The position numbers were made by a program, and so were the translations under genes. DNA of 48,639 bases from Mesotaenium endlicherianum. Its lineage: Eukaryota. Below the pieces are notes generated by a model, which had not been told where the DNA came from, made no database searches, and saw only the letters and a program-made list of their open reading frames with translations. Within the stretch, counting starts at the first letter, position 1, and each line of letters starts with the position of its first letter. Shown piece by piece: positions 1,415 to 46,100 of this stretch. The DNA lies in contig WELA01000646.1 of the NCBI GenBank assembly GCA_009602735.1, forward strand, positions 1 through 48,639, given 5' to 3'.

Positions 1415-1695
1415 TGTCGTGCCTAACGTGGCACGTGCGTGGCTTCTCAGCACGTGTGCCTTCGACTTGGTTGACGTGTCGGTGCGTCGCTGCACGTGGG
1501 GATCGACCTGATTGATCGTCCCTCGCACGTGTGTTGGTGACAGACTGGTTGGGGTTTGACCCATTCTTGGTCTTCCTGCACTTGCATCATGCGGTGAGGC
1601 ATCCCACACTCAGTGCTTCCCATGTTCAACCCGTTCGTCATTCAACACTTAGCAAAAAATTTCAAGAAGATAGCTTATCTTCAGTTTCCCTTACA
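1415..1695 (-). repeat. Family A terminal repeat segment X, outer copy
   Basis: Direct repeat of 2927-3218 (over 90% by eye, one ~12-nt indel). On the minus strand it starts TGTAAGGG and ends GGCACGACA. Similarity stops sharply at 1415. Confidence 0.9.
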
Positions 1696-2924
1696 AGGAC
1701 AGGAGCGTCTTACTTCCACACAGGCTTTCGCCCGAGTTGAGGGTTTACAGAATGAATAACTTTATAGTTTGTAGAAATCACGTCTAAGCAGCTTAACAGG
1801 CAATGCCTAGTTCAAAGAAAATCGCCCTTTAAGGCTTTTGCTTAACTTCCACAAGTCACAGCTTACAAAACTCTGAATTGCACATCTATGCTGGCCTGGT
1901 TTGAGTTCTTCGCTCAACACCGCGCCTTAACAGCTCTTCACGGCTTGGCTGAGCTCACTCAATGCTTCACTGAGGGCTCTACTTGTTAATACTACTCTTG
2001 CTTATCAGCAATTCGACAATTGAGACTTCTGAGAACTTGGAAACTAACACAGCACTCACCATTTTAAGTGACCCTCGCACGCTTGCGGCGTTTGACCCAA
2101 ATCTGTGCTAATCTCCTAACAGATTCTATCTTGCAGCTCTCTACTTTCTACCAGCGAGATCCTGTCTTGGGAACTCCTGAGGTCTAACCTTTCTATGATA
2201 CCCTTAGGAAGAAATCTTCCAGCGTCGGTAGAAGCGTGGCGCCCCCGCTCTTCTATGCCCTTGGGAACTCCTCTTCTTTGCGCTCCTTCTGCTTCTTCAG
2301 CTTCCTTTGACAACAATGCGAGCAAGAATGAGGCAGCTTCAGGCAAGACTCGTGCCTTTCACAGGCACCACACACTGTCCTCTCTCGAGAATGCCAGTGC
2401 TTAGTTACAGCGTTTAGCATGCATGCCGTCCTTACCCAACAGTTCTCACACAGCTTAGAAGTTGTCATTCAGCATGCATGCATGCATTGGGATTGTTGCG
2501 CGTGACCGCTTAGCCTTTCAGCTGACAATCACGCCTATGCGGCTGGCTGGCACCGTTTAGGGTGAACGCTCAATCCGTGACTAGTCATCTGAGGGTCTGG
2601 CCGAGGCGGCACACAACACCCTTTGCAACATCCCTGCTGTACTTGGCTTGGGTAGCCGATTGATCAGTACCTTTCTTGGTACTCGCTGGGCTGGCTCATT
2701 GCTGGTTCCATGCCCCTAGCCTTTCGGCTGACTACTTTGTCGTAATCCCTATCCAGTCCTGGATGTGGGTTTGATGTGTCGTGACCACTTTGACAGTGGT
2801 AACGACTTGAACATGACCGCTGACTCGGTCCTTTGGTCGGTGAGTCAATGTTGACTTCCCGTACCTGGGCGGCCATGACTTGCGCTGCGCGTGCGGCACC
2901 GTCAAGTGGATAGCAGTCGCGACA
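1696..2924 (-). repeat. Family A terminal repeat segment Y
   Basis: Begins TGTCGCGAC on the minus strand. 2664-2924 is homologous to 45838-46100, the 5' end of family A copy 2. Confidence 0.75.
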
Positions 2925-2926
2925 GC

Positions 2927-3218
2927 TGTCGTGCCTAACAGCGTCAAAAACCTGGCACGTGCGTGGCTTCTCAGCACGTGTGCCCTCGACTTGGTTGACG
3001 TGTCAGTGCATCGCTGCACGTGGGGATCGACCGGGTTGATCGTCCCTTGCACGTGTGTCGATGACAGACTGGTTAGGGTTCGACCCATTCCTGGTCTTCC
3101 TGCACTTGCATCATGCGGTGAGGCATCCCATACTCGGTGCTTCCCATGTTCAACCAGTTCCTCATTCAACACTTAGCAGAAATTTCGAGAAGATAGCTTA
3201 TCTTCAGTTTCCCTTACA
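2927..3218 (-). repeat. Family A terminal repeat segment X, inner copy (PPT-adjacent, U3-like)
   Basis: Starts TGTAAGGG immediately after the polypurine tract. Contains four CACGTG boxes. Confidence 0.9.
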
Positions 3219-3264: not shown

Positions 3265-3672
3265 TTATTTTTTGTCCCTGTGGCTGGGGGTTTCGGGAAG
3301 GCAGTCACGACATTCCCACCATCCTGCCATAATCTCTTCTTCACCAATGCAGAAGGTGTGCCAACGGGCACCACACTAATCGCAAGTTACCATTGCTTCT
3401 TGAGCATCCAGCACTTTGCAGCTGGCACAAGGCGTGGCTGGCACCAATTCCTCGGGCATTGTCTTGATCGTAGGATCGATATTTGGCAAATGGCACAACA
3501 AACAGTTCTGCACGTCATCTCTCATGGTCTTACCATCAAAACCTTCCAATTCCAACACACCATTGTTGAACGCATGTTTCACGCGTAAGATCACTTCACC
3601 TGAACTGGTGTCAATGGTGGTCTTAGTCTGGCGCTTGCGGTAGACAAAGTCTCCTTCCTGGATCTGCGTCAT
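3265..3672 (-). pseudogene. Integrase C-terminal extension with PHD finger (one in-frame TAG)
   Basis: Reading through the stop at 3376-3378 gives CASCKVLDAQEAMVTCD*CGARWHTFCIGEEEIMAGWWECRDC, a C4-H-C3 PHD signature with WxCxxC. Confidence 0.85.
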
Positions 3673-3693
3673 TTGCAGGCGGTAGCTCCCATC

Positions 3694-5253
3694 TCACGTC
3701 TTGGCGTAACGCTGCGTGTCTCTTTTCTGTGCAATTTTCAGATTGTCCAGGGCAGCAGGCATTATGTGCTCAAATAACACCTTACGGCGCAACATGACCT
3801 TTAGCAGTTCATCAGGGTTGTCCAGGTCTTTCACCTGCTCAATCTCCTGCTTGATGCTGCTGGGCACAATTGGACTTCTTCCAAACAAAATTTGATAAGG
3901 CGAGTAATTTGCCAAAGCAGCTTGCTTGCTAAATCTATAACCCATAAGCAGCCATGGCAAGGCCAGATCCCAATCACGCTTATCATGCTTAAGGCAAAAT
4001 TTGCGCAAAGCAGACTTAATGGTTTGCACCATCCGTTCTGCCAGACCATTTGCTTGTGAGTGGTCTCTAGACGTAGTGCGATGGTCAATGAAGCATTTGT
4101 CCAGGAGTTTTTGAAAAGATCCTTGGAACTCAGACCCTTGGTCTGTCAGCACTTCTGCTGGGGCTCCATGACGTACAATCACACCATTGAGGAGCGCTTC
4201 CGCGGTCCCCAAGCTTTCCTTAGCATTTAGAGGCACCACCTCTATCCACTTAGAGAAATGCTCAATCACGACCATAATGTACTTGTTACCTCGCTTGGAC
4301 AGCGGTAGCTCACCTGCGAGATCGCAGCTCCACCGATATCCTAGGCCCGTAATTGGCAGAGGTTGTAGGTGCGGGTGTTGCTGCGTAAAACCAGCCTTGA
4401 CGCGATCGCAGCTTCTACAGGCCTTGATCACATCCTCACAGTGCTGCTTCATGCCCCTCCACCAGTAAGACAGCTCCAGAAGACTGTATGTCTTCTTAAC
4501 ACCATAGTGTCCAGTATTCTCATGCATTTCCTGCACCAGAGCTTGTCTTTTGTTGGGTTCTGGCACTAACTTATCCTGACCAGTTTCTTCAATCTTGAAG
4601 AGGTTATTGCATTTCCAGCAAAACTTTTTAGCCCGATGGCCTACCTGGTCCTTTTTTGTTGTCGACAATCCTTCTATATGGGTCCCCGTCTTCAACCAAT
4701 GCATAGTGGCTTGATCTTTCCAGATCTCTGGACTGAACAAGGGTAGGGGCTCAGCTTCTCCTGATGCTACCATTCTAGCCATTTCGGCCAAGCAGGCGGC
4801 CAATTCTGTGGGGCTGCTCGGGTCTTCGTCTTCTCGAGCCCCTGTTCTGTCGTCTGCAGATGGGTCCGGGTTCCTGCTGAGTCCATTAGCGTCGTTGTTG
4901 AGTATACCTGCTCGGTGTATCACCGTCATCTGGTACTCCTGGAGCTTGAGAGCCCAACGAGCGAGTTTACCAGTGAGGTCTCCATTCTTCATCAACCAGA
5001 GTAACGGCGAATGATCTGTGATCAGCGTGAAGGGCCTCCCCCATAGATATTCTCTAAAATGTGCAACAGCCCAGACCACTGCCAGTAGCTCTCCTTCGTA
5101 GGACGAGTAGTTGCTCTCTGCTTGGTTGTTAAAGCACAAGACATAGGCAATGACGTACTCCTCTCTAGGACTTTCGGCCTGAGTGAGTACTGTGCCAATT
5201 CCCACACGACTCCAGTCGGTGTGTAGATTGAACGGCTTGGAGTAGTCAGGTGT
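3694..5253 (-). pseudogene. pol: Family A RNase H and DDE integrase (frameshifted)
   Basis: RNase H motifs LHTDWS, NYSSYEGELLAVVWAV, ITDHSPL, LARWALKLQEY. Integrase HHCC (HENTGH...CRSC) and catalytic CDLAG, TDQGSEF, LAERMV. Confidence 0.95.
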
Positions 5254-6261
5254 TCACAAGACTGGGGCTGTTACCAGCCGCTCCTTGAGCTCATTCATGG
5301 CCTTCTCCTGGGCTTCTGTCCACACAAAAGGTACGTCATTTTTGAGGAGTTCTGTTAAGGGTTTAGCAATTTTGCTATAATCCTTCACAAACTTACAATA
5401 GTATCCGCTTAGCCCTAACAGAGCTTTCAGCTTAGACACATTTGTTGGTGCAGGTATCTTGTAAATGGTTTTAGTCTTTACAGCCTGAGGGGACATAGCA
5501 TTATTCCCAATCTCATGTCCTAGGTAAGGCACGTGTGCCTCAAAGAATCTGCACTTTCCAGGGTGCAGCCTCATCTGGAATTTCTCCAGGCGCTGGAACA
5601 CTTGCTCCAAGTGCTCGAGGTGCTCCTCTATGGACTTGCTGAACACCACTACGTCATCTATGTATGGTTTTGCAAAATCCAGCCCCTCCAGCACTTTATC
5701 CATAGTCCTCTGAAAGATGGCTGGGGCATTTTTCAGCCCAAACGGCATTACCGTCCATTGCCAAAGTTCCCTTTGGGCCCATAAAGCGGTCTTACCTTGA
5801 TCTTCTGTTTTCACAGGGTTCTGGTTGAACCCTTGGCGTAGGTCGATGATGCTGAACACCTTCCCGGTGGTAGCAATCGCAAAGATCCGCTCTAGTGTAG
5901 GCATCACATAGCTGTCTGGCTCCGTGTGAAGATTCAGTCGTCTGTAGTCTTCACACATACAAGTGGCTGTATAATTGCCATCCTTGTCCTTCTTGGCAAC
6001 TACTACCATGGGAGCTCCATGTATTGAGGTTGATTTCTCAATCATGCCGAGCTTATGCAGCTCCTAGCAAGTTTTCTCCACATAGTCCCATTCGGTCTGA
6101 CTGAGCTTATGCGGCCCAAGTCTGACTGGGTTATCAGTAGTTAGTGTGATCTTACACATACTGGCAGTGGATCTACCAATCTCCTCCTTAGTAAAAGCAA
6201 ACACCTTGCAAAGCTTCTTCATCAGCCTCCCTACTTTTGCTCTCTGTTGGGCTGAGACCAT
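5254..6261 (-). pseudogene. pol: Family A reverse transcriptase
   Basis: DYRRLN, IIDLRQGFNQ, VMPFGLKNAPAIFQR, YIDDVVVFS, YLGH. In-frame stop near 6064. Confidence 0.95.
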
Positions 6262-8479
6262 GTTTCCAATGGTAAAAACCTCAGCTGCTGGCTGCTTTTC
6301 CCCAACACAGGCATCCAGTAGTTGCTACTTCTTGGGTCTAGGTGGAGGCTTTTTGCCCTCATCCTGGCCTTCAGGCTTTTCTGCCTGATTGTTAGACGGT
6401 GGAGTGGCAGGCTTTGCAGCTTGGTCCTCCGCTGTCTCAAGCTTGGTGGCCTGCTTCTCAGGCCTTTTACCTTTTCCAATAGAACGTCACCTCTCTTGTG
6501 GCGTGGAGTAGGTCAGACGCCTCCGGATGGGCTGCTTGAAGAATCTTTCTTCATCGGCTGCAGTCCAGCTGGTCCCTGTTCCTCCTTCTTCACGTGGTGG
6601 GGGTGGGTTTGGCCACCCTGCTGGATCTGCTCAAAGGTCGATTGTGCAACCCCACTCGCGCTCAATGGTAGCTATGCGCGCAACGGTTGTGCCAAACTCC
6701 TCCCTGGCTGGTGGCGTAACCGTCCATGCTTGTGTCACAGTCTGCGATCTTTGAGCCGCAGCTAGTTGTGCGTATATAGCATTCTCTGCTGTCAAATGGC
6801 TTATGGTGCTTCTCAGCTCTACCAATTCCCTTTCAGACACTGCAGGTGTCCTAGGAGCTGACCATTCTTTCTCCCACATTTCTGTAGATGAGGGGCGCAC
6901 CATGGAAATGTGAATTCCCAATGCCATGGCTTTGCGAATTAAGCCATCCTCTCCCTCTCTCTGCAAAACTTCCAAGATAGGTCGCGGAGGAGAAACCGTG
7001 GTTTTTTTCAAAACTTCTTCTCTCTAAGCTGTTCCCCTGTACTTAAGATAACGCATCAGCATCCGCCTGAAAGGTGCATTCCATTCCCAGGCCACCTTTC
7101 TTGGTCTGCTTGCGCAACCGTGAGGATTTCCTTGTGTTGGTTCCACCTTAGCAGTGCAGGCAGCCACTTCCTGCGGTTGTTGTAGCTAATGTGGGGTATC
7201 TTCTCGTGCTGGAAAACTGGCGGTTGGAGTGCTGGATGTGGGCGACCTTAGATCGTTGTAAAGATCGGCCGGGCTGGGTCCTTCCATCATCAAGTGGTCG
7301 TTCACTCAATCATCCGTTCTGAGCTCTTGTAACTCCAACAGGTCCAGCTCTGGGGTAGGAAAACGTAGAATTTCTTCCCGAATCTCCTCTTCATTGGTGA
7401 CTGACGGGCAGGTCAAACCCTAGAAGGTCTGGCATCTCTGCCTCATCTTCAACTGATTTCCCCGCTCTCGTTGGTGGCGGTTCTCCTTCATTATCTGTGT
7501 TGAGCTTTGCCAAGTTGACGATGGCTGATTGCAGAGCGCTTGCCGCCTTAGCCACTTCCCTTTCCTTGTGTTGTCAAGCGTCTCCACCCAGCAGCTGCTC
7601 CATGATTTGCCTTGAAATGGATTCAGCTGTTTGACTGGCTGAACCCTGCTGTTGCCCCTTAGCTTGCGGCTCTGGGCTCATCAAGGCAGGTGTTGTAGAC
7701 AATTTCTTGTCCAACTCTTCCTGGCGTTCTTCAAATATCACTTCGAGACATATGGTCTTTGCAGACCCTCCAGAATCTCCTGAGTTCTGGCTACTCTCTT
7801 CAGCCCTTTCACCAAGATTGCACTGGCGTTCTTGCATTACTACTTGGTTTAAGCAGTATCCAGTATTTTCGGCCATAGGCCAGGAGTCTTCGTCTCAGAT
7901 TCTTCTGACATGTATTGTAACGACGCTTGCTCTGGTGAAGACGATAGACACTTTTGGTTAGATTCCCAGCTACTTGAGCATTCCTGCCAATAGTCTCCGC
8001 GCCCAGCTGCTCTTGGGGTGAGGTGGGTATCATACCTTGACCTGGTCTTTTTTGGAGTCTCTTCACGTCTTGATGTCGTGGCTACAAGATGTGAGCTCCC
8101 AAAAATCTAGCTGTGAATGGCGTTTCTCGCAGATGATGGGGTGCCATGCGTATCGTCTTCTACTCTTGGTAGCGGCACTGCCTGCTCACGCGCCTGATCC
8201 CTCATGGGTGTATCCTCTCTTTTTAGAGGTGCTTGTAATTCCTTGGTCCCGTTATCAATCCGGGCCAACAGATCCTGACATCTCATCAGTTTTGCCACTC
8301 TTTCTCCCCTGAATGCTCTGTCTACAGCGGCTTCCACTGCGTCTCTTTGCACTCAGTATTCTTCTTGTTGCTGATGTGCCGTTTTGATAGCCCTCTGATC
8401 AGATGTTGGCACCACATTGAACCCAATTGTCACTGGTTTTGGTCTTGGCATAGGCTTGTCAGTGAAGGTCAACTGTTGC

Positions 8480-8922
8480 CATGTCATGATTGTTTCCACC
8501 AACCAAGTCATAGAGTGCTGCCCGATCATGTTGCCGAAAATCTTTGCGGCTTCATAAGACCCTACAGCACCGGCTATATGCTGAGCTATGGTGTCAGGTA
8601 TTCCAAGGCATTTGCCCTTTTCCACCGCGGTAGGCTCTCTCCACACGGCGTCTCTTTCATATATGTCTTTGACCATTCTTGGTCCACCTCCTATGAAGGC
8701 TCGGCATCCTGGATATGCTGTGAAGGTTGGTAGTACCACTATTGGCTGGCCTGGTTCGTTGATGACACACTGTGGATAGGAATCCCTCCTGGTCACTGGT
8801 CTGGTATGCACCGCCAATTCCATTTCCACTGTCAATGCCGTTGGTGATTGCCGTGTAATGTCCTCCATTTCTCTCAGAACCTCCATAGACATGCCGTTGG
8901 TCCAAAATATCCTGGCCCTATG
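8480..8922 (-). pseudogene. C5-cytosine DNA methyltransferase, C-terminal half (motifs VIII-X), inside family A pol
   Basis: HRARIFWTN (motif VIII; DNMT3 has HRARYFWGN), REPTAVEKGKCLGIP (motif IX-like), AAKIFGNMI (motif X-like). Cut at 8922 by an LTR. Confidence 0.75.
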
Positions 8923-9636
8923 TGAAATGAATCGTCTTACCAAATAGGCGACTAATAATTAATAAAGATCATTATATCAGCAAGTAATCTTTATGGATTT
9001 TTTGTTAACTGATTAAACGGCAAAGGACAACACACTAGCTGTGAACAATACTTGTAAATCAAATGAGAGTAAACTAGCATCAATAATGCATTCAGTAAAC
9101 TCATACATAAGCAAGGTTAGAAGACAGTGCGTATCAATGGCTTCTCGCCTTGGATTCAGTTCTCTCTCAGTCAGCTGTACAAGAGAGTTGGCCTCGTTTT
9201 TGAATGCCGAACTCGAGAGCATTGCCTAGCATATGTACATGGAATGAGTTTACTGTTCAACGATCAGTGCGATGGCACCGCCTACCCGGGAGTTAACCAC
9301 GTTGGTAGGACCTTGGTTAACCAAATCCACCCCCATCTCCCATCATCCCAAATCGCCATCCGTCATAGGGATGTCATCTGGCCATTCATTTAGCATATCA
9401 CACCTAGACGCATATCGAGGCAGTTCGCTGCTACCGAGTACGGACGTCAGCTGGCTGTCAAAGAATGTGTTAGCAAGCTGACTTAAGCTGCAGCCTGCTG
9501 CATCCGGCTGAGTCATTAAACTGATACTAAATATAAAGTCCAGCAGCTGACTATCAACTAAAGTTCAGCAGGCTGAACTTAATTTACTATTACATTAAAA
9601 TGAATATTATATCTACTAATATACTGATTCATTACA
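8923..9636 (-). repeat. Family B 3' LTR
   Basis: TGAAATG...ATTACA on the plus strand. PPT (GGAGGGAT, minus) adjacent at 9637-9644. Confidence 0.95.
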
Positions 9637-9748
9637 ATCCCTCCAACTGTACTTGTTGTCGCCTCGACAACATTAAACTGCAAAAGTCTTTGGCCAGGAA
9701 ACTGAACCTGACCCGCCTCTTCCCGTGACTGCCCCTTCAGCGTTTTGC

Positions 9749-11421
9749 CTAGGGGGTTGTTCCTGGGGCTTCAGGATCAGGAGACCGAGATCTGGACCTA
9801 GATCTGGACAGCCCTCTAGGTCTGTCAGCTGGCCTTCTAAAAAACCCCGTTTGCTCTAAAGTTGGACCTCGAGGAGAACGAAGGATGGTAGCCTGCTCTT
9901 CACCCACTTGGGTGTTGATCCCCACATAGACAGGCATTCCAGTAGGATGCTGAAATACATTGGCTAGAGGTACATGCCCCTGAGCGGAGGGGGAGGCCGG
10001 CATACCTCTGGCCCACCCGCGTGTCCCTCTTCTGGCACCCCTGTCCTCTGGGGATTTCTGCCTGTGTCTGCTCCCCAGTACAGTTAGATCAGAATCTTCC
10101 CCTGCTTGGGCAGGTGGGGGGAGCGAGTGCGGGGTCCAGTTGCCTCCAAGACGGGGATCACGTTCCAAATGCCTGATCGTGGTTCTTTAGGAAGTGTTCC
10201 TGCCTGACCTTGGGTCTCCTGAGTACCAGCTGCTGATGCTTCTCTTCTGCCTTGTTCTTCTTCCTCATCCTCCTCATCCTCCTCCTCGGAGAGAGTAGGA
10301 GTCTCGTCCACTAAGTCGTCCTGCTCCCTAGTAGACATGGAGTAGTCTACCGACCTCCCTTTCTTAGGGCGCGCGGGGGGTTGCTTGGCCTTCAGCCTGT
10401 TGATATCTATCCGGCCTGCATTCTTTGCCCATTTGACGAAGGCATGCTTTCCCTTTGAGAAATAGTCTCTTCCCCTCCTCCTATGCTCCTTGGTCTCTGC
10501 ATTCATATTGCTCAGGCAACCATTCAGCCTGGGGTCCCAAGGGGCAATGTGAGGTGGTAGGATGAGATAGCCGTCTAGGCCATAGTGGAAGTCATCCGGT
10601 TGGGCTCGGTCACCTTCCTGCTTCTTATTTGTGACGATCATCCACCTCCAGTCTGTTGGCTGCTGGTAATACTGGGGTCCGTGCTCAGCCTTCCTCATTT
10701 TACACGGGAACCAGTGGGGAGAGAACATCTGCTGTCTTGCTTCCCGGGCCAAGTACTCCCAGCTCCTTCTCTCAACTTCATTGTAAGCTGGCAACAGTGT
10801 GAGGTAGAATACCGTGTCCTTAAAGCTATTGGGCCGCATGCTCACCATCCGGATGAGTCTCTAATCTCCCACTATTCCCGGTATGGGGACCGGCTTGTTT
10901 TCTAAATCATCTGCAAGGTACCGGGCCTGCTCTGCTGTATAGCCCACCATCTTGGCATAATCTTCGTAGAGGACCACACCAGTGTGTGTCTCGATGTACC
11001 TATCCAGTGTTGCAGCTCCTTCCCTCTGTAGCAGTGTCGTCTGTTCCAGCTTGTTGATCTCCTGGGCTGCCAGCAATGCTTTCTTCAGGTTATCAAAGTT
11101 TTGGCCACCCACTACAGTACACCTGTAAGTGGCCAAGCTCTTCTGTCTGTCCGCTTCAATCTTTTTCCTTTTCTCCTCCTCGCCGCTGCCGCTTCTTCTT
11201 GTTGTTTCTTCTCTCTCGCCTCCTCAGCTTTTCTGAGGTTTTTCCGCTTCCTGATCCTTCTTCCTCTGTGCCTCTTCTGCCGCCTCTTGTTGTCTGCGGA
11301 CCCTTTCTTGTTCTCCTCTGGTGAGGGACGTCGCCGCCAGCTCCTTTTGGTATTGCTCCATTGTCCTCCTGGCTTCTTCTGCCTTGCGCTTTCTGTCCTC
11401 CTTTTGTGTAGTGGGAGCCAT
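9749..11421 (-). pseudogene. Family B extra ORF downstream of pol (about 550 aa when two frameshifts and one TAG are repaired), function unknown
   Basis: Joins track ORFs 11224-11445, 11112-11471, 10861-11136, 10084-10848 and 9749-10168. Colinear with 22377-23663, with many synonymous differences. Confidence 0.8.
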
Positions 11422-11422
11422 C

Positions 11423-11528
11423 CTGTACATGTAACCAGGGCACAAGTTAGTAGGATATGGACGTTTGTCATAGGGATTGCAGGCAGGAAGTATGTCCGTA
11501 TTAGTATGGTGGATTTGCTCCTCTTTAC
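11423..11528 (-). other. Predicted 106-nt spliceosomal intron just upstream of the extra-ORF ATG
   Basis: AAG|GTAAAG donor, TACTAAC branch point (11446-11452) and TACAG|G-ATG acceptor. Same length and signals at 22270-22375. Confidence 0.65.
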
Positions 11529-11769
11529 CTTACAGGGTGATTGCTAGAAGTTGACGTAGTTGCGGTGCGCTAAACATAAACGTATGAATGTGTTTTAAGG
11601 TGAGTTAAGTGATGTGTTGCTGTGCGAGGCCCTTTTCCCTTCAGCTCAAGGTGCTTTCACGTAACTGTCCCTTTATCGCTCTCGCTCACTAACTGTCATA
11701 TACTTTTCCCCTCCAACTTAAATGAAGACACGACCGCCTGTCACCTTCCCGTGTCAACTGAAATGACAG

Positions 11770-14700
11770 TTATGGAGGGGCTCCAGTCGCCCGAAGGTGG
11801 AACCGTTTCAACGCCCCTTTGGCATTGGTCAAATGGTCCTTAAATTCCCAAGTGTCCCCAGAGGCATCGTAACCCTTCCATCGAATGAGGTATTTCATGA
11901 CATATTTAGACGATCAACGGACCGAGCGCGCGTCTAAAATCTCCTCAACCTCATATTCGTCAGAGTTGCCGTCCCTGACAGCGGGGACCGGTTCCGGTTG
12001 GACTGGGAACCAACCTGTGAACAGTATATCACCTTTGATGTATGGTTCCAGGAAGGAGACATTAAAGACCGGGTGACCCTTGTATTCGGCTGACACGTTT
12101 AGTTTGTAAGCGTTCTGACCGACACGACGCACCACCGAACATGGACCGACCCAGACAAGGCCAAGCTTTTTCTTGACCACACCAGGGAGGTACAGGTGCT
12201 GAGAATGCAGTTTGACTAGATTGCCTTTAGAAAATGTCAGCTCTCGACGGTGTTGATTAGCGTATTTTTGTTGGTTTTGTTGGGCTTTGTGCAGGTTTTG
12301 TTGGACTTCTGACAGGGTGTCAGCAAACTCCTGAGTTAACTGGAGGGAGACGGGATTGTCAATACCTTCAGGGTCAGTTAAAGACTCCCCCAGTACATCT
12401 AAAGGAGACTTAGGGACTCTACTCAGGCTGAGTTCAAAAGGAGTCTTGCCCGTTGACGCGTGCACCGCAATGTTGATCGCAAACTGAATTTGAGGCAACA
12501 GGTCATCCCAATTATCTTGTTTTTGGTTAATATATGCTCTCAGCACCTCCTGCAGAACTCGGTTAGTTCTTTCAGTCTGTCCATCAGTGTGAGGGTGGTT
12601 AGCTGTGCTAAGCAGCTGTTTGACTCCCATTAACCCCATTAAAGCTCTCCAAACTTAGAGGTAAATTTTGAGTCTCTGTCTGAGATGATATCAGAGGGAA
12701 GCCCATGTTGGCATACTACATGGTTGTAGAACTGTCTCGCTGTTTTGAGTGCAGTCACTTTGACAGTTGTGGGGATAAAATTGACCATCTTTGTCAGTTT
12801 ATCCACGACTACCAGTATCGAATCATGCCCATTGGCAGTTTTTGGTAGTGTGACCACCCAGTCCAGGGATATAGTTTCCCAGCGTCCAGCTGGAATGGGG
12901 AGTGGTTGCAAGAGACCTCCCGGTGGTGTGTGCCTAGACTTATTTTTTTGACACTGATCACAGGACTTTACATATTTCAAGACCTCCTGAGGCAACCCCT
13001 CCGAATGATAATGTTTCGCCAGTTTGCCAACTGTTTTGGCCTGCCCCAAATGCCCACCCAGTAAACTGTCATGTGCTTGACTCAATAAAAGGGACCTTAT
13101 TTCCAAGTTATTAGGAATGACCAGCTTCAGCCTGCCTGAAGTGATTTCTGTCACCCAGACCCCTCCCTTATGCTTATACCCGAGTGCAGTAGCACGACAC
13201 ACACCAGTAGTGGGGCTGGGCTCAAATGTTGGGTCAGAAAGGTAGGCTTTCCTAAGTTGTTCAAGAAAGGACTTTTTCACCTCTAGTGAAGTGAGTGCAC
13301 ACAGGACTTTATCTACAGCATGCTGACTAAAGTTGCTTTCTTGCAAGTCAGGTCTTCTAGAGAGTGCATCAGCAAGATTCAACTTCCCTGGTTTGTAGTC
13401 GATCTGGACTTGGAATTGCTCCAGCATCTTGGTCCAGCGGTTCTCCCTCCTCGACAGCTTGGACTTCTTCTCAAAGTGAGTCAGAGCTAGATGATCTGTA
13501 ATCACCTTAAAAGCTTTACCATGTAAGTATGCTCTCCACTGTTTGAGTACATGAATGATAGCTAGCAGCTCTTTATCATGCACTGAGTAATTAATCTCCG
13601 CTGGATTAAATTTCATAGACTCATACAACACAGGATGCCACTCCTGCCGTACCTTACCATCCTTTGTGGTTTTGTCAGCAGGCTGCAACAAAATAGCACC
13701 CATGGCAAAGTCAGAGGCATCAGTAACCACCTGCACCGGTTTGCTGGGGTCATACACGGCTAGCACTGGGGCAGAACAAAGGGCATCTTTAAGGGTCTGG
13801 AAGGCAGCCTGCTGCTCTTCCCCCCACGCATACCCTATGTCGTTCTTAGTAAGGTCAGTCGGTTTACTGGCCTTTGTAGAATAATTCTCAATAAATCTCC
13901 TATAGTAGTTAGCCAACCCGAGGAAGGATCTAACTTCAGAGACAGACTGTGATGCTGGCCAGTCCCTTATGGTCTGGACTCTCTTAGGATCCACACTGAT
14001 GCCGTCTTTACTGACAACATGGCCTAAGAATTCAGTACTTTCTTTAAAGAAATCACACTTGCTCATTTTTGCATATAAGTGATTTTTTCTCAGAGTGTCA
14101 AGGACTGTCTTTAAGTGTCTAGCAGGGTGAGCTTCATCCTTAGAGAAAATTAAAATATCTTCCAGGAAAACTTGCACAAACTTATCCAAGTAAGGCCTGA
14201 AAATGTCATTCATAGCACCCATGAAGGTCGCAGGAGCATTAGTCAGTCCAAATGGCATCACGTTGAACTCATAGTGTCCATAACGTGTGCGGAAGGCAAT
14301 CTTGTGTTCATCCCCCTCAGCAATTCTGATTTGATGATAACCACTCTTGAGATCTATCTTATTGAACACCTTAGCACCAGACAGGGTATCAAGCAAGTCC
14401 TTGATTCTGGGTAAAGCATACTTGTTCTTTATTGTTATTCTGTTCAGGGCTCTGTAATCCACTCACATCCGAATACCACCATCCTTTTTCTTAACAAATA
14501 GGATGGGTGCGCCGTAAGGTGATTTACTGGGAGAAATATAACCACTTTCCTCAAGCTCCGCAATCTGTGTTTTCAACTCCTCGCTCTCCACATAAGAGAA
14601 GTCATAAGTGCGTTGCCAGGGTGGCTGACTCCCAGGTAATAAATCAATCCTATGATCTACTTCTCTCTTATGGGGTAGTCCTGGAGGCATATTAAACACA

Positions 14701-15455
14701 TCCGTGTACTGAGCATCAATTTTCGCAGCAGTAGGGTGCTCCGGAGGGCTTACCTTTTTCTCCACCACTTCTTCGGGTTGAGGAGGTACGTCTCTTATCA
14801 GCAGACAGAACATTCTGTCTTCCTTCTGGTTCCAGCTTTTGACGAACTCCAATGCATTCAGCAACTTGCATCCTTCTGGAAGCCTCTTCTTTTCCTTCAT
14901 TTGCCATCCACACAGGACAAGAGGAAGAGCACTGGTGGGTGCCAAGTCAGTCTGCCCATCACTGGCTCCTCTCACTTTAACTGTACCTCTGCTCCAACAC
15001 ACTTCAGCTTGATGTCTATTAAGCCAGGACCTGCCTAGCACGAGATCATAAAAGCCAGTGTTGAGTACCTCAAATGTAAGCGTTTCAGTTAGAACTGCAA
15101 TGCCAGAACCTAACTGGACCTCAATAGGCTTGGTTATAACTCCTCCGGGGATACTTGAGGCATCTCCAAGGAATATTTTTCTATTCCCTTGGGTGACAGT
15201 AGGCAGCCTTAGCCGCTTAACTAAGTCCTTGTGGATAAAAGTATGTGACGCCCCTCCGTCAACAAATGCCCTCACCTTCCTACCTGCAATCATGCAATGC
15301 AGTAGGATAGGGGGGACTGTCTTTTCCTGACTTTCGCATTGTTCTCCTGACGTAGCAAAGAAATGTTGGACATCAGGTGGAACAAGAGCATCCAGACTGT
15401 GCACTCTCTGGACGTCTATATTGCTGATGGTCTCCTTTATCTGGTTGTCAGGCAT
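11770..15455 (-). pseudogene. pol: Family B pol: protease, RT, RNase H, integrase, chromodomain
   Basis: [34 protein letters not shown] (catalytic D mutated); [13 protein letters not shown]...GH...CDQC, SDRD, DGQTER; chromodomain EYEVEEILD...YLIRWKGYDASGDTWE. Stops at 14463 and 11914, frameshift near 12639. Confidence 0.95.
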
Positions 15456-15930
15456 GCATAGTCTAGCAAATGCAGCAGCGTGAAATTGGCATCTACTTGC
15501 TGCGTAGTGTCCTCAACAGTCCCTCTCGCTCCTGCAGCAGCAATTCCTGCCGCATTCAGCCGGTCACGTATTTGACCTAGGGGTACATTGAATTGTACAG
15601 CAGGAGGTGGGTTCAGGATATTGGCCCTGGATGCCATAAGTTCTTCAACAGTGCGCTTGTCAGCTGGCTGTTCTTCCCTCCTTTCTGTATCTTCAGCGGC
15701 CTTTGCTAATTGTTCAGTTCTAATCTGGCTCTCTCCTCCTCAGCTTGCTGTGCTGCAACTGCGGCAATAACACTGGCCTCATCTGCAGCCTCTCTAGGTG
15801 CAGTATCTGCCACTAGTTCAGAATAGGTACGGGTTCCCGCTACATGGCTTTTCGCCTGGTTTTTGACATTCTCGCTATCCTGGTTCTCCATGTCTCGGGT
15901 GTTGCTAGTTTGAGATCTTGTCCTTACCAT
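15437..15930 (-). pseudogene. gag: Family B gag N-terminus (capsid and zinc-knuckle region deleted)
   Basis: ATG about 20 nt after the PBS (MVRTRSQ). Homologous to 17010-17250, then jumps to the equivalent of about 18350. Confidence 0.75.
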
Positions 15931-15950
15931 ACAAAGAAGACTGTAATAAT

Positions 15951-15963
15951 TGCTCCGATACCA
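15951..15963 (-). promoter_or_regulatory. Primer binding site, tRNA-iMet type
   Basis: TGGTATCGGAGCA, 1 nt after the LTR end. Confidence 0.9.
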
Positions 15964-15964
15964 C

Positions 15965-16746
15965 TGAAATGAATCGTCTTACCAAATAGGCGATTAATAA
16001 TTAATAAAAATCTTTATATCAGGAAGTAATCTTTATGGATTTTTCGTTAACTGATTAAACGGCAAAGGACAACACACTAGCAGTGAACAATACTCGTAAA
16101 TCAAATGCGAGTAAACTAGCATCAATAATGCATTCAGTAAACTCATGCATAAGCAAGGTTAGAAGACAGTGCGTATCAATGGCTTCTCGCCTTGGATTCA
16201 GTTCTCTCTCAGTCAGCTGTACAAGAGAGTTGGCCTCGTTTTTGAATGCCGAACTCGAGAGCATTGCCTAGCATATGTACATGGAATGAGTTTACTGTTC
16301 AACGATCAGTGCGATGGCACCGCCTACCCGGGAGTTAACCACGTTGGTAGGACCTCGGTTAACCAAATCCACCGCCATCTCCCATCATCCCGAATCGCCA
16401 TCCATCATAGGGATGTCATTTGGCCATTCATCTAGCATACCACACTTAGATGCATATCGAGGCAGTTTGCTGCTACCGAGTACAGAAGTCAGCTGGCTGT
16501 TAAAGAATGTGTCAGCAAGCTGACTTAAGCTGACTTCAGCTTGCTGCATCCGGCTGAGTCATTAAACTGATACTAAATATAAACTCCAGCACACTGACTA
16601 TTAACTAAAGTTCAGCAGGCTGAATTATGTAAATTACATTTAAATGAATATTACTTCTACTAATATACTGATTCATTACAGGCTGAACTTAATTTACAAT
16701 TACATTTAAATGAATATTACATCTACTAATATACTGATTCATTACA
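15965..16746 (-). repeat. Family B 5' LTR with a 66-bp terminal tandem duplication (16681-16746)
   Basis: Near-identical to 8923-9636 apart from the extra unit. Confidence 0.95.
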
Positions 16747-17009
16747 ATGACTCAGCTGAGAGCAGCAGGCTGAAGTCAACTTAGGTCAGCTTGCTGATAC
16801 ATTGTTTGACAGCCAGCTGACTTCTGTACTCGGTAGCAGCGATTTGCCTAGATATGCATCTAAGTGTGGTATGCTAGATGAATGGCCAAATGACATCCTT
16901 AGCATGGATGGCGATTCGGGATGATGGGAGATGGCGGTGGATTTGGTTAACGGAGGTCCTACCAACGTGGTTAACTCCCAAGTAGGCAATGCCGTTGCAC
17001 TTGCCGTTG

Positions 17010-21990: not shown

Positions 21991-22376
21991 ATTGTCGTTT
22001 CATTTGACATAGGACGATGACAGGAGGTGTTGTCTCCATTTGAGTTGGAGGGGAAATGTGCTAGTAAATGACAGGTAGTGTGCGAGAGAGGGACAGTTAT
22101 TGACAGCATAGTCACAGATGGGACACCCACGCCTACATTCAGCAAAGTTGGCGGAATGAAGAAGGGACTTGCACATCAACACATTATTTAACTTACCCTG
22201 CACACACATTCATTTGTTTATTTTTCATCGCACTGCAGCTACGTCTACTCCTCGTAACTACCCTGTAAGGTTAACGGGAACAAACCTACTATAACAATAC
22301 AAACTTGCTTCTCTTCCTGCAACTCCGGTGACAAGATCAAGATCCTACTAACTTGTGCCTTGGTGGCATGTGCAGG

Positions 22377-23663: not shown

Positions 23664-23766
23664 GCAACAGTGCTGAAACACGGGGGGGTTAGTTCTGTTA
23701 GTTTCCTTACCAGCTAATTTTGCAATTCAATGTTGTCGAGGCGACAACAATTTAAGTTCGAGGGAT

Positions 23767-28295: not shown

Positions 28296-28296
28296 N

Positions 28297-38980: not shown

Positions 38981-39000
38981 AATATAACATGCAAACTAGT

Positions 39001-39015: not shown

Positions 39016-39017
39016 GA

Positions 39018-41586: not shown

Positions 41587-42257
41587 CTTTCCAGGATGCA
41601 GCTTCATCTGGAATTTCTCCAAGCGCTGGAACACTTATCCCAAGTGCTCGAGGTGCTCCTCTATGGACTTGCTGAATACTACTACATTGTCAATGTATGG
41701 CTTAGCGAAATCCAGCCCCTCCAGCGCTTTATCCATAGTCCTCTGAAATATGGCTGGGGCATTTTTCAGTCCAAATGGCATTACTGTCCATTGCCAAAGT
41801 TCCCTTTGAGCCCAGAAAGCAGTCTTACCTCGATCTTCTGTTTTCACAGGGATCTGGTTGAAGCCTTGGCGCAGATCGATAATGCTGAACACCTTTCCGG
41901 TGGTGGCAATTGCAAAGATCCTTTCCGGCGTAGGCATCACATAGCTATCTGGCTCCGTGTAGAGATTCAGTCGCCTGTAATCTCCACACATTCGAGTGGC
42001 AGTGTAATGCCGGCCTCGTCCTTTTTGGCGACTACTACTGTGGGAGCCCCATGCACTGAGGTAGATTTTTCAATCATGCGGAGCTTATGCAGCTCTTCAA
42101 AGGTTTTCTCCACACAGTCCCATTCTGTCTGACTGAGCTTATGCGGCCCTAGTCTGACTGGATAATCAGTAGTTAGTGTGATCTCACACACACTGGCAGT
42201 GGTTCTACCAATCTCCTCCTTAGTGAAAGCAAATACCTTGCGGTATTTCTTCAGCAA
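41587..42257 (-). pseudogene. pol: Family A RT, truncated
   Basis: DYRRLN, IIDLRQGFNQ, MPFGLKNAP, YIDNVVVFS (catalytic D to N). Confidence 0.95.
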
Positions 42258-43667
42258 CCTTTCTCCTTGTGCTCTCTGCTGAGCTCAGACCATTTCCCCA
42301 ATGGCAAAAGTCTCAGTTTCAGGTTGCGTCTCCCCAACAAAGACATCCAGTAGTTGCTACTCCTTAGGTGCAGGTGGGGGCTTCCCGCCCTCATCCTGGC
42401 CCTCAGGCTTTTCTGCCTGATTCTGGCTCTCAGGCTTTGCAGCTTGATTCTTAGGAGGTGGGGTAACAGGCTTTGCAGCTTGCTCCTCCGTTGCCATAAG
42501 TTTGGCAGCCTGTTTCTTAGGCTTTTTACCTTTCTCAATGACGCGTCGCCTCTCCTGCGGTGAGGGGTATGTCAGGCGCCTCCCGATGGGCAGCCTCAGG
42601 ATCATTTCCTCGTCGACTGCAGTCCAACCGGTCCCGGTTCCTCCTTCTTCACGTGGCCGAGGTTGGTTTGCCATTGGAAAACCTGCGGGATCTGTCCTAG
42701 GGCTGATCGCCCAGCCCCATTCTTGCTTAATAATAGCCATGCGGGCGACGGTCGTGCCATACTCCTCCCTTGCGGGTGGTGTGACCATCCATGCCTGCGC
42801 CAATGTTTGCGACCTTTGAGGTGCAGCTAGTTGTGCAAGAAAGGCATCATCTGCTGCGGTCAAGCGGCTGATGGTGTTTCTCAGATCCATCAGTTCCCAT
42901 TCTGGGATTGCAGGTATCATGGGGGCAGGCTCCTCCGACCTCTGTATCCTAAGGTCTGATAGTTGCAACAAGGGCGTGTTCATGCCAGGCGGCACACTAA
43001 TGCCCAATGCCATTGCCCTGCGAACCAAACCATCCTCTCCCTCTCTCTGCACAATATCCCGCAGAGGCGGAGGAGGTGGGGCTGTGGTTCCTCGCGGAAC
43101 GCCCTCTCTCTGAGCCTTCCCCTTATGCTTGAAATATCGCTTTAGCATCCTCCTAAAAGATGCGTTACCCTCACGGGCCACCTTCCTTGGTCTGCTTGCG
43201 CGACTTTCGGGCTTTCCTTGTGCTGTCTCCACTTTAGCAGTGCAGGCTGTCGCCTCCTGCCGTTGCGGCGGTTGTGCGGTTGACTTGGGTTCTGCCACTG
43301 GAAGCCTGGCAGAAGGAGAACGGATGTTGGCGACCTTAATTCTTCATAAAGTTCTGCCGGGCTTGGCCTCATCAGGTGGTCAGCTACCCAGTCGTCTGTC
43401 CTCAGCTCCTGTAAGTCAAGCAGATCCACCTCTGGCGTGGGAAAATGTAGGATTTCTTCCCCAATGTCGTCTTCATTGTTGAGTGATGGTGACTCCAACT
43501 CCGAGAGGCCTTGCATTTCTGCATCCTCTTCCTCCTCCGGCTTCTCTGTTCCAGGAGGCGGTAATTCTTCGTCCCCTCCTGTGTTGAGCCTCGCCATGTT
43601 GATGATGGCTGACTATAGAGCGAGAGCTGCTTTCGCCACTTTCTCTTCCTTGAGTCGAGGGGCGTCT

Positions 43668-44037
43668 GCTTCCGCAGCATACTGATGATCTTCACCATCC
43701 TTCCCCAGTGTTGTGCTCGCAGGTCATTGAATCCCCTCCTGTTCCCAGCTTGTGAGAAAGGTTGACAAGGGAATCCCGCAAAAATCCAGTCAATCCTGTG
43801 ATCATACAGGTCCTCAGACTTCACATCAAGAATGTTTCCTCCAGCAAGACGCACCACACTGGTAGGCACCAATGCCTTGAAGTGGTACATTTGCCGCATC
43901 TCACTCATGACCTCCTCAAATGCTGTAAAAACACTCTCATCATTGTCCACATACAGCACTTTGGATACCTGGATACCTCGCTGAATCAGTGCGATGGTTC
44001 CAGTACCAAGTCCGGCGAACAATTCCAGCACTACTAC
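43668..44037 (-). pseudogene. C5-cytosine DNA methyltransferase, N-terminal half (motifs I-V), inside family A pol
   Basis: VLELFAGLGTG (motif I, SAM binding), LYVDND (II), GNILDV (III), IDWIFAGFPCQPFSQAGNRRGFNDLR (IV with catalytic PC, and V). Ends at a deletion junction near 43667. Confidence 0.92.
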
Positions 44038-44432
44038 TCCTCTCCTGCGAAAAGGATCTTCCATCCTCACAATGCCTTGCGGCAATGGTTCTACTCCAGG
44101 CATCAAATTGGCAGCAGTCTTAACTGGATAAGGAACTGGCAGCAGCTCTTGCGGGCCACGGTCCCTGTTACTCACGGCTTCTAGTTGCTCCATAATCCAA
44201 GGCTGCCAAACCAAGGGAGTCGGCATGTTGATGCTGGTGTAGATCTTCTCTTCGCGTTGCATGATGAGGTCATAATGGTCTGGATACTGGTTATTCACAC
44301 AGCAGTCTAGCAGTCCGTAGTTTGCTTCTCCCGAGCAAACCATTTTTACAGGAATTTCTCCTGTCGGCTGCCGATCTGTCGACTGGTAAGTCACCCTCTG
44401 CTTCCGCAGGTCGATGACCATACCCAGGGGAA

Positions 44433-45837
44433 TCAGAGCTTCTGTCCCCAATANGAAATCAGAGCTTTTGTCCCCAATAGAACATCATAGTTTTCTGCCT
44501 CTGTCACTGTACACTCAATTAGCAGTGACGCTTCCTCAGGTTTCCCCAAGTTTACTGTGATTTCCACAGGCTTGCGGGTGATTCCACAAGACTTTGAAAT
44601 CTGCCCAGATGCAGTCCTCAACTGGAAAAGGACTTTCTTTCAGGTCCCTTGCCGTCAATCCCAGAGCTTTCACAGCTCGCTTTTCCAAGATTATTGGCTG
44701 TGCGCCAGTGTCGAATAGGATGTTGGGAGTGGCCCAGTTGTTAAACGTCAAAACTCTATCCTTGTTCTGCACTCTCACAATGCTGAAATCAGTAGGCAGC
44801 GAAGCGCTGTTCGCGCCTTCCTCAGCTAGGTCCAGCTGCTGTCTAGCTTCCTCAATCGTGAAAAGGTATGTAAGACGCAGATCAGCGAGTGAAAGACAAG
44901 GAATGTGCTGAATCCGGTGTTCCACCAGAGCTTTTAGCTTTTCCAGCGAAAAACTAAATGTCTTGCGTGGCCCAGGCTTGGCTTGTCGTAGCTGCGCAAT
45001 CTCGTTCTCATCGAGAGTGATCCGAAAGGTCTGAGGAAGCTTCCCAGCATTCCTTGGAACCAGGCGGTCATGATCTGCGCGCTCCGCAGCCGTTGCAGCC
45101 ACGGCCTTCTCAGGCGTCAGCTTCTCGCCTTTGCAGACGGTCTTTTCGGCCACATCTGCATCGTAATAGACATTAGGCACATTTAGTCTTGCAAATTGAG
45201 CTTTCAACTCTGCAATCTCTGCACTCATAGCATCATACTTCTGATTACCCTTCCGGTTACCAGAATTATCTTTCTCCTTTTTCTTACCCTTATCTGCCTC
45301 TTTTGTGGCAGCATTAGCCCATAATGGTTTCAGATTTGGGTTCTTGGACCAACACTTATCTTCTGAGTGTCCCTTTTTACTGCAATGTGCGCATACCTGC
45401 GCCTTGCTAGCAGACAATTGCTTAGCATCCGGGTACGCACAATCTCTCTTCTGATGTCCTGATTTCCCGCAGTTCCAACAACCCTCTGCTGTCTCAGCAG
45501 TGTTGGCGTGCTTAGCAAACCTATTGAAAGACCCGCTCTTTTTCTTAAACTGAAAGTAAGAGCTATTGGCCTTGGGCTGAAAGGATTCCTCCCTTCTCTC
45601 AGGAGCCATAAGCGTCCTGGAAGCCTCCTTGTACCAGACTTTACCTTCCTCGACATTGCGTGCTATTTCAGCAGCCTCGTCGATGTTCCAGTCGGTTCCG
45701 CGTTTCGCAGATAGGTGCGGCCTGACCTCCCGATCTGTATCTTTACCCAGACACAATAAGAATTTGTCAGCCACAATCCTAGGCTCATAGATTCCTGCCT
45801 TCTTGGCAAGGTCTACCAATCTGGATTTGACGTCCAC
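44433..45837 (-). pseudogene. gag: Family A gag C-terminal part (two CCHC knuckles) fused in frame to aspartic protease
   Basis: CWNCGKSGHQKRDC, CAHCSKKGHSEDKC, ILFDTGAQ, YDVLLGT. Frameshift near 44620. The gag start is deleted. Confidence 0.9.
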
Positions 45838-46100
45838 TCAGTACCTCACCTGGTACTTGCTGGGCGGCTCATTGCTGATCCCCAGCTCCTAGCCTCGCGG
45901 CTGTCTTGTAAAAACCTCCCCCATCCTTGGGTGTGGGTCATACTGACATTGATTCCTTGCCAGTGGTCTTGACGCCGCCATAACCGCTGACTGCGATGTA
46001 ATCAGTCAAGTGGTCGGTGAGTCAACGTTGACTTTCAGCACTAGGTGGCCGTAGCTTGCGCTGCGCGTGCGACACCGTCAAACGGATAATAGTCGCGACA

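What the first reader, a model, noticed from the sequence alone, without database searches (positions are those of the whole stretch)
3265..3450. PHD finger at the integrase C-terminus, hidden by a stop codon: a reader and a writer in one element
Seen: a complete C4HC3 PHD pattern when the TAG at 3376-3378 is read through, in the position chromoviruses use for a chromodomain. Known: many PHD fingers read the H3 tail, and host DNMT3 enzymes are guided by a PHD-like ADD domain that senses H3K4. Inference: this element combines histone-guided targeting with its own DNA methyltransferase, echoing DNMT3 logic.
Basis: partly seen in the sequence, partly recalled or inferred. Interest (0 to 1): 0.7.

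Follow-up and report, generated by a model that had tools for sequence, protein, structure and literature searches.

The report
PHD-tipped integrase of Gypsy-DNMT3 retrotransposon
A dead copy of a jumping gene, likely from a green plant or alga, ends its integrase with a real PHD zinc finger and also carries part of a DNA methyltransferase; the pairing is common across a large, partly described family, and the finger likely helps choose where new copies land rather than steering the methyltransferase.

Summary
Confirmed. A C4HC3 PHD finger (3301-3429, minus strand) ends the integrase of a decayed Ty3/Gypsy element (Pfam 24.8 bits, cut-off 24). The TAG at 3376-78 is private decay: over 99% of family depth has another first base. 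A DNMT3-like C-half lies 5 kb upstream; a second window copy holds the N-half.

The pairing is clade-wide. Of 120 relatives found with a PHD-free query, 106 have the PHD, 77 the DNMT and 69 both. Domain order and split direct repeats match KnitGypsy-Dnmt3 (PMC5890265). The finger resembles readers of the unmodified H3 tail, has no K4me3 cage, and its K4-sensing acid is variable.

The ADD analogy is weak here. A family-fixed UAG-CAA-CUA, likely a leaky stop, and about 700 extra codons separate the DNMT from RT-integrase-PHD, so reader and writer probably act apart: PHD on integration, DNMT on DNA.

The scan reported this pairing three times before on other genomes. The leaky stop, the 4-bp target duplications and a second DNMT position next to integrase came from my own calls. 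New member of a known kind.

The parts
3301..3429 (-). PHD finger (C4HC3) at the integrase C-terminus
   Evidence: Pfam PF00628 24.8 bits; ligand map; PDB hits are PHD fingers
3376..3378 (-). Premature TAG between Cys3 and Cys4, private to this copy
   Evidence: Other first base in 48308 of 48481 (X1), 51577 of 51777 (X4), 44 of 44 (X5) and 124.9 of 124.9 (X7) depth
3265..3267 (-). Natural stop (TAA) of the RT-RNase H-integrase-PHD frame
   Evidence: 14 close relatives also end within about 14 residues of the last Cys
3430..3696 (-). Integrase C-terminal domain (SH3-like by inference), with a premature TGA at 3694-3696
   Evidence: Aligns with 14 relatives; stop list
4066..4557 (-). Integrase H2C2 zinc finger and DDE core
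   Evidence: PF17921 and PF00665
4933..5991 (-). Reverse transcriptase and RNase H, with a premature stop at 5254-5256
   Evidence: PF00078, PF17917; the 5256 base differs in 26440 of 26596 depth in X1
6319..6327 (-). Family-fixed in-frame TAG CAA CTA, likely a leaky (read-through) stop between ORF1 and RT-integrase-PHD
   Evidence: Same in both window copies; no variant at 8% or more over 6290-6329 in X1; fits UAG CAR YYA (PMC3542737)
6328..8364 (-). About 700-codon coding extension between DNMT and RT, decayed; no homologue found
   Evidence: Differences between the two copies over 6330-7300 by codon position: 62/291, 40/293, 110/294; no hit
8365..8925 (-). C-half of a DNMT3-like C5 methyltransferase (motifs VIII-X), cut by a nested Ty3 element at about 8925
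   Evidence: tblastn E 5e-7 to 5e-13 from 6 of 6 DNMT-bearing polyproteins; own HMM 75 bits; Pfam alone gave no hit
2927..3218 (-). Repeat B1, ending ...CACGACA
   Evidence: 93% to B2; ends read
1696..2924 (-). Repeat A2, starting TGTCGCGAC and separated from B1 by 2 bases (GC at 2925-2926); its lower boundary is inferred from B2
   Evidence: 2664-2924 matches 45838-46100; 96 and 85 loose ends with mixed flanks behind 2924
1415..1695 (-). Repeat B2, the element's 3' end (...CACGACA)
41587..46100 (-). Second, deleted copy of the family: repeat A1 (45838-46100), gag zinc knuckles, protease, DNMT N-half (43660-44046, with FAG and PCQ motifs), extension, same fixed stop (42351-42359), part of RT
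   Evidence: 76% DNA identity to copy 1 over 2089 columns; PF00145 54 bits, PF00098

Best explanation
This is the tail of a dead Gypsy-DNMT3 retrotransposon copy whose integrase ends in a PHD finger that, in intact copies, likely binds the N-terminal tail of histone H3 and so likely tethers the integration complex to chromatin, while the element's DNMT3-like enzyme likely works separately. Shown: the domain order gag-protease-DNMT-extension-[fixed UAG CAA CUA]-RT-RNase H-integrase-PHD, pieced from two window copies; split direct repeats A...B-A-B; the private nature of the PHD stop; clade-wide conservation of the finger and of the DNMT catalytic residues. Inferred: most ribosomes stop at the fixed UAG and make Gag-protease-DNMT in excess; a minority read through to make RT-integrase-PHD; the protease frees the domains in the particle; the DNMT methylates the cDNA or nearby DNA; integrase-PHD docks on nucleosomes with a free H3 N-terminus, with uncertain sensitivity to K4 methylation.
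For: PHD in 104 of the best 120 relatives by Pfam and 106 of 120 by my HMM, with a query that lacked the PHD. DNMT in 77 of 120, both in 69. Of the 43 without DNMT, 41 begin under 450 aa before RT, too short to hold an upstream one. In 78 metagenome loci, 48 show a DNMT and 56 a PHD (many are copies of a few families). Catalytic Cys 65 of 67, motif VI Glu 65 of 67, motif VIII Arg 64 of 67 full-length DNMT domains. All 29 PDB hits of a relative's DNMT are DNMT3A/B/C. Best PDB hits of the PHD profile are KMT2C/D, CHD4, KDM5 PHD1, WSTF, ATXR5, DPF, BAZ2, UHRF1 and AIRE; no ING or BPTF among the 60 shown of 75. Among 218 pattern-matching PHDs (of 262 proteins): Asp after Cys3 in 204, Trp two before Cys7 in 198, no Trp two before the His (Gly 190). 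These correspond to KDM5B D328 and W351 and to the absence of the K4me3 cage Trp (PMC4225485 passages; the position of the cage Trp is recalled). Four-base target duplications in 4 relatives with both ends (two exact, two with one mismatch) show integrase-type insertion. Fixed stop; a sister family has a stop followed by CAA CCC at the same junction in 8 loci.
Against: No binding, targeting, read-through or methylation was measured. This copy's finger is divergent: 24-36% identity to aligned relatives, a 2-residue deletion, no acidic residue before Cys1, Arg instead of the usual Gly two before the His. The acid three before Cys1 is Asp in only 97 of 218. ING1 and Pygopus PHDs appear lower in the single-sequence and fold lists. 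Several DNMT-bearing relatives lack a detectable PHD (8 of 77), some because they are partial, so it is not universal. The fixed-stop evidence comes from one run (X1), which may be the window's source sample. The largest locus family shows no conserved stop at the junction, and 13 relatives have a full DNMT and RT in one ORF. Motif VI of the DNMT is in neither window copy, so this family's enzyme is not shown intact.
Confidence: 0.6

Rival explanations
1. True DNMT3 analogue: the PHD recruits or activates the element's DNMT on chromatin lacking H3K4 methylation, in an uncut read-through chain or in a complex, so the new insertion or its flanks are methylated as it lands.
For: PHD and DNMT co-occur in 69 of 120 relatives. 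In 60 of 120 the DNMT sits between RNase H and integrase, directly ahead of integrase-PHD, in one clade with support 1.0. The PHD class fits unmodified-H3 readers.
Against: In the window's family the DNMT is about 5 kb and a fixed stop away. The K4-sensing acid is variable. Co-occurrence within one lineage is shared ancestry, not independent evidence of coupling.
Confidence: 0.2
2. The PHD is a protein-binding or structural module: it binds a host factor or non-histone peptide, or stabilises integrase, and has no role in reading histone marks.
For: Among the best PDB matches is a KMT2D PHD2/3 pair solved with ASXL2, not a histone. Some relatives have very degenerate fingers (P0007, P0028, P0030).
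Against: The Ala1 and Arg2 pocket residues are kept in 198 and 204 of 218 fingers. Position equals that of the chromodomain in chromoviruses.
Confidence: 0.15
3. In this particular family the finger is already drifting and non-functional, a relic of the clade.
For: Low score (29-32 bits against about 75 for relatives), loop deletion, atypical residues.
Against: All eight ligands are present, none of the 40 best-supported family variants falls on a ligand codon (498 rows not shown), and the family has many copies without the stop.
Confidence: 0.05

Closest known systems
KnitGypsy-Dnmt3 / streptophyte 'Gypsy-DNMT3' (de Mendoza et al. 2018, PMC5890265; named again in preprint 10.64898/2026.05.21.726589)
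   Same: Ty3/Gypsy pol with an intronless DNMT3-like domain, conserved catalytic residues, and DIRS-like repeats around Gypsy domains (Fig. 4c legend). A K. nitens protein (P0027) aligns at 42% over RT-integrase and also to the DNMT C-half.
   Different: PHD occurs 0 times in that paper's text and in its 3 held supplements; the figure itself was not visible and may show one. Both K. nitens hits are partial and end before the PHD position. The window family adds a fixed leaky-type stop and an extension of about 700 codons. Relatives also occur in chlorophytes (Tetrabaena, Monoraphidium, Pleodorina), with the DNMT at a different position.
Chromoviruses (Ty3/Gypsy with a chromodomain on integrase)
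   Same: A histone-reader fold at the integrase C-terminus; the window holds a real chromovirus for comparison (33606-39937).
   Different: PHD instead of chromodomain; separate branch from the window's chromovirus in an RT-RNase H-integrase tree with only three non-clade sequences; split repeats instead of paired LTRs.
EpiLTRs (chromodomain + DAM + DNMT; preprint 10.64898/2026.05.21.726589) and CopiaMBD (PMC6673714)
   Same: Reader and writer domains in one LTR element; a reader proposed to guide insertion.
   Different: Different reader, different DNMT clade (sister to DNMT4 in EpiLTRs), different hosts (passages).
PHD fingers in other mobile elements: Ginger1-9 (PMC2836005), CR1, Chlamys, and Chlamydomonas elements (PMC8557442, PMC6673714)
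   Same: PHD as a common accessory domain; in Ginger1-9 it lies C-terminal to a Gypsy-like integrase.
   Different: The passages read do not describe it paired with a DNMT in an LTR-type pol.
Host DNMT3A/B ADD domain (mechanism recalled)
   Same: DNMT3-type catalytic domain plus a PHD-like reader of the H3 tail.
   Different: ADD is adjacent to and regulates the catalytic domain; here the finger is a canonical C4HC3 on integrase, far from the DNMT.

Membership tests
PHD finger (PF00628) | C4HC3 ligand pattern with correct spacing | tested here: met
PHD finger (PF00628) | Profile score above the curated cut-off | tested here: met
   24.8 bits against 24 for the isolated piece; 18.7 within the long protein
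Unmodified-H3 reader PHDs (KDM5 PHD1, BAZ2, UHRF1 type) | Asp after Cys3 (Arg2 pocket) and Trp before Cys7 (Ala1 pocket) | tested here: met
   Present in this copy; 204 and 198 of 218; KDM5B D328 and W351
Unmodified-H3 reader PHDs (KDM5 PHD1, BAZ2, UHRF1 type) | Acidic residue before Cys1 that senses unmethylated K4 | tested here: inconclusive
   Absent in this copy; Asp at Cys1-3 in 97 of 218
Unmodified-H3 reader PHDs (KDM5 PHD1, BAZ2, UHRF1 type) | Measured binding to H3 peptide | not testable with these tools
   No assay possible
H3K4me3-reader PHDs (ING2, BPTF type) | Aromatic cage with Trp two before the His | tested here: not met
   0 of 218 have Trp there; position rule recalled, cage role from PMC4225485
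Gypsy-DNMT3 (KnitGypsy-Dnmt3) | Ty3/Gypsy order protease-RT-RNase H-integrase | tested here: met
   (two copies combined)
Gypsy-DNMT3 (KnitGypsy-Dnmt3) | DNMT3-related domain inside the element's coding region | tested here: met
   DNMT3 class shown on relative L012, not on the window halves themselves
Gypsy-DNMT3 (KnitGypsy-Dnmt3) | DNMT in one uninterrupted ORF with pol | tested here: inconclusive
   Same frame at both ends, but a family-fixed stop and a decayed extension lie between; one chain only if read through
Gypsy-DNMT3 (KnitGypsy-Dnmt3) | DIRS-like (split direct) repeats | tested here: met
   Window. Full A...B-A-B in 6 of 37 relatives examined, the B pair alone in 14 more
Gypsy-DNMT3 (KnitGypsy-Dnmt3) | Conserved catalytic residues | tested here: inconclusive
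   Motifs I and IV in copy 2, VIII-X in copy 1, motif VI missing from the window; conserved in 64-65 of 67 relatives
Gypsy-DNMT3 (KnitGypsy-Dnmt3) | Groups with the K. nitens elements in an RT tree | not tested
   P0027 and P0036 fell below the length filter; 116 of 123 sequences entered the tree
Chromovirus | Chromodomain after integrase | tested here: not met
   No Chromo hit on this element; clear hit on the neighbouring element
DIRS/Ngaro (tyrosine recombinase) | Tyrosine recombinase instead of DDE integrase, no target duplication | tested here: not met
   DDE integrase; 4-bp duplications in 4 relatives; the no-duplication rule is recalled

The most novel reading that the evidence does not exclude
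An old, unnamed Viridiplantae-wide Ty3 lineage has rebuilt DNMT3 logic from parts. Its integrase-PHD reads unmethylated H3 tails and brings along a DNMT3-like writer, fused directly ahead of integrase in the chlorophyte branch and dosed by a leaky UAG-CAR-YYA stop in this branch, so that each new insertion is placed and methylated according to histone state. It does this with a DDE integrase acting on DIRS-like split repeats that contain a built-in end-to-end junction.
Probability: 0.2. Interest if true: 0.75.

Novelty: new member of a known kind. Interest (0 to 1): 0.4.

Why it matters
If the finger steers integration, this is a second histone-reader solution at the integrase tail beside the chromodomain, in a lineage spread over green algae and early land plants, and a small domain that could be tested directly on peptides. 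If it also steers the DNMT, a transposon would be writing its own chromatin-dependent methylation, which bears on why elements keep an enzyme that hosts use to silence them. The fixed leaky stop and the split repeats with 4-bp target duplications raise separate, testable questions on expression ratio and on how the cDNA ends are made.

Tried and rejected
No whole genome is held for this window, so copy number, insertion-site context and an intact copy could not be checked. A homologue search restricted to the integrase tail among long proteins found none among 386 candidates; two searches found many. No RNA holder was listed. Two RNA runs and DNA run X5 gave 0 reads on 6230-6430, which is no test. 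The extension found no relative by Pfam, among stored proteins and loci or among 5481 candidates. Foldseek gave no match at E<=0.001. A weak tblastx hint of a second PHD near 10917-11000 was rejected: the PHD HMM finds one site in the whole window. Phygy was considered; the four duplications seen do not fit its NCGN preference (PMC6317226 passage), but no Phygy sequence was compared. A read-through or recoding role for the TAG inside the PHD was rejected because it is private to this copy. No complex was folded: a histone tail was not available as a chain. Literature: searches found no paper describing a PHD on Gypsy-DNMT3 integrase; subscription papers, figures and bioRxiv supplements were not visible, and the Sanchez and Zhou review was not held.

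Full report
Setting. The window is a eukaryotic nest of LTR-type retrotransposons; no genome is held for it. The host is not known. The labels of the relatives (Klebsormidium, Closterium, Tetrabaena, Monoraphidium, Pleodorina) suggest a green plant or alga, which is an inference. The finding lies on the minus strand at the end of a Ty3/Gypsy pol frame with RT, RNase H, H2C2 and DDE core.

The observation. The eight zinc ligands are present at 3429-3301 with a TAG between Cys3 and Cys4, and the frame ends at TAA 3265-67. With X at the stop the piece passes the Pfam PHD cut-off (24.8 against 24 bits), though not inside the long protein. PDB sequence hits are PHD fingers (best E 2.6e-6). The AlphaFold model (pLDDT 74, 13 sequences) returns PHD structures first, none at E<=0.001.

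The stop is decay. Contigs of four runs (three samples at most; X1 and X4 are one sample and may be the window's source) show another base at 3378, the first position of the stop, in over 99% of depth (40, 44, 2 and 2 contigs). Any change there gives a sense codon. The stop at 5254-56 is private too. The copy has two more premature stops (6066, 3696) that the shown rows do not address. None of the 40 rows shown hits a ligand codon; 498 rows were not shown.

The writer. Six of six DNMT-bearing polyproteins align to a stretch within 8416-8925 (E 5e-7 to 5e-13). An HMM built from 15 of the 23 Pfam-labelled DNMT domains scores that stretch at 75 bits (profile positions 183-362) and 43660-44046 of a second copy at 69 bits (positions 2-136); positions 137-182 with motif VI are absent from the window. 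Copy 1 is cut by a nested Ty3 element at about 8925; copy 2 has lost the C-half. A relative's complete domain hits only DNMT3A/B/C in PDB, 29 of 29.

The clade. A query of RNase H and integrase without the PHD gave 358 long proteins at E<=1e-20; of the 120 listed, 104 carry Pfam PHD and 23 Pfam DNA_methylase. My HMMs find PHD in 106, DNMT in 77 (a few partial or weak) and both in 69. There are two layouts: DNMT before RT (17) and DNMT between RNase H and integrase (60, one clade with support 1.0, holding the named chlorophytes). The window copy falls among the first type (116 of 123 sequences, FastTree, rooted on the window's chromovirus). A DNMT tree of 67 domains splits the same way, 13 and 54. 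Catalytic residues are kept in 64-65 of 67. The representative search counts 329 clusters at E<=1e-30 for the integrase tail with PHD. In 78 metagenome loci, 48 show a DNMT and 56 a PHD.

Family identity. The 3' end reads PHD stop, B1 (3218-2927), two bases, A2 (from 2924), B2 (1695-1415); copy 2 begins with A1. About 90 loose ends with mixed flanks at 2924 mark A as the element's start. Six of 37 relatives show the full A...B-A-B layout and 14 more the B pair. Ends are TG...CA, and four relatives have 4-bp target duplications, two exact and two with one mismatch. De Mendoza et al. describe KnitGypsy-Dnmt3 as Gypsy domains with DIRS-like repeats (PMC5890265; abstract, passages, section 9 and a term search of 3 supplements seen). 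The element is therefore filed as Gypsy-DNMT3, with tree placement beside K. nitens untested.

What the finger likely reads. The closest solved domains are KMT2C/D, CHD4, KDM5 PHD1, WSTF, ATXR5, DPF, BAZ2 and UHRF1 fingers. In KDM5B PHD1, D328 binds Arg2, W351 and L325 bind Ala1, and D308 binds unmethylated Lys4, while K4me3 readers use an aromatic cage (PMC4225485, abstract and passages). The clade keeps the Asp (204 of 218) and Trp (198 of 218), never has the cage Trp, and has a variable acid before Cys1. This copy has the Asp and Trp but no such acid. Binding of a free H3 N-terminus is likely; K4 sensing is open.

Reader and writer are probably apart. Between the DNMT and RT the window family has about 2.1 kb more than relatives. 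The 1 kb tested shows third-position bias between the two copies (110/294 against 62/291 and 40/293), so it is coding, but no homologue was found. It ends in an in-frame TAG CAA CTA present in both copies, with no variant at 8% or more over 6290-6329 in X1 while both flanks vary (22 rows, complete list). This fits the type I read-through motif UAG CAR YYA (PMC3542737, one passage). A sister family has a stop plus CAA CCC at the same junction in 8 loci (6 TAG, 2 TAA), and one further locus has TGA CGG, the type II context. Against generality: the largest locus family has no conserved stop there (35 junctions read), and 13 proteins hold a full DNMT and RT in one ORF. With a protease in the element, DNMT and integrase-PHD are likely separate mature proteins, unlike ADD and the catalytic domain of DNMT3 (recalled).

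Novelty. Retrotransposon PHDs are called widespread (PMC6673714, PMC8557442; passages), a PHD follows a Gypsy-like integrase in Ginger1-9 (PMC2836005; passages), and reader-plus-writer LTR elements are described as EpiLTRs (preprint 10.64898/2026.05.21.726589; passages). Preprint 10.1101/2025.04.15.648976 (passages) added nothing on this. Six searches found no text on a PHD in Gypsy-DNMT3, but Fig. 4c of the 2018 paper and preprint supplements were not visible. Three earlier reports of this scan describe the same pairing on other genomes; they are unchecked notes and agree with a reading I had already reached.

Verdict. Interest 0.4.

Noticed in passing
window 6319-6327 and 42351-42359 (minus); L009, L021, L023, L025, L040, L042, L060, L071; L031: Family-fixed stop with a read-through context between DNMT and RT: TAG CAA CTA in the window, stop plus CAA CCC in a sister family, TGA CGG in one more locus. 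Suggests recoding sets the DNMT-to-pol ratio.
   Followed up: partly
window 2924-2927; L012, L028, L035, L045: The internal B1-A2 junction is element end + 2 bases + element start, like an end-to-end circle junction, in an element with DDE integrase and 4-bp target duplications. How the cDNA ends are made is unexplained.
   Followed up: partly
window 6328-8364 and 42360-43655: About 700-codon coding extension after the DNMT, under apparent purifying selection, with no relative found in three searches.
   Followed up: partly
P0049, P0082, P0114 and others (no window coordinates): In the branch with the DNMT between RNase H and integrase, the PHD is followed by a 70-500 aa tail; 11 of 120 proteins have a TSPW-like motif in the last 160 aa that recalls an amino-methyltransferase (recalled resemblance; no Pfam hit). 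Possibly a second writer.
   Followed up: partly
P0112; P0001: P0112 has DNMT, PHD and a chromodomain in one polyprotein; P0001 has two PHDs.
   Followed up: no
window 33606-39937 (minus): Near-complete chromovirus with 97% identical LTRs, gag, pol and chromodomain.
   Followed up: partly
window 8922-16748 (minus), 18350-24535 (plus), 46100-48639: A third Ty3 family, nested in the DNMT of copy 1, with an inverted sister copy and an extra ORF region (10084-11529; 22420-23448) that has no convincing Pfam match.
   Followed up: partly
window 1696-2663: Repeat A2 is about 1.2 kb here against about 0.3 kb in relatives and holds a decayed coding-like stretch on the minus strand (about 2040-2340).
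   Followed up: no
window 24600-33200: GC-rich region with GT and GGCA microsatellites and short coding-like pieces (for example 26901-27659, with a membrane-like segment); probably a host gene with introns; no convincing Pfam match.
   Followed up: no
window 3265-8920: CpG observed/expected is 0.51 in copy 1 against 0.72 in the chromovirus, and family differences are mostly transitions, consistent with the element itself being methylated.
   Followed up: partly
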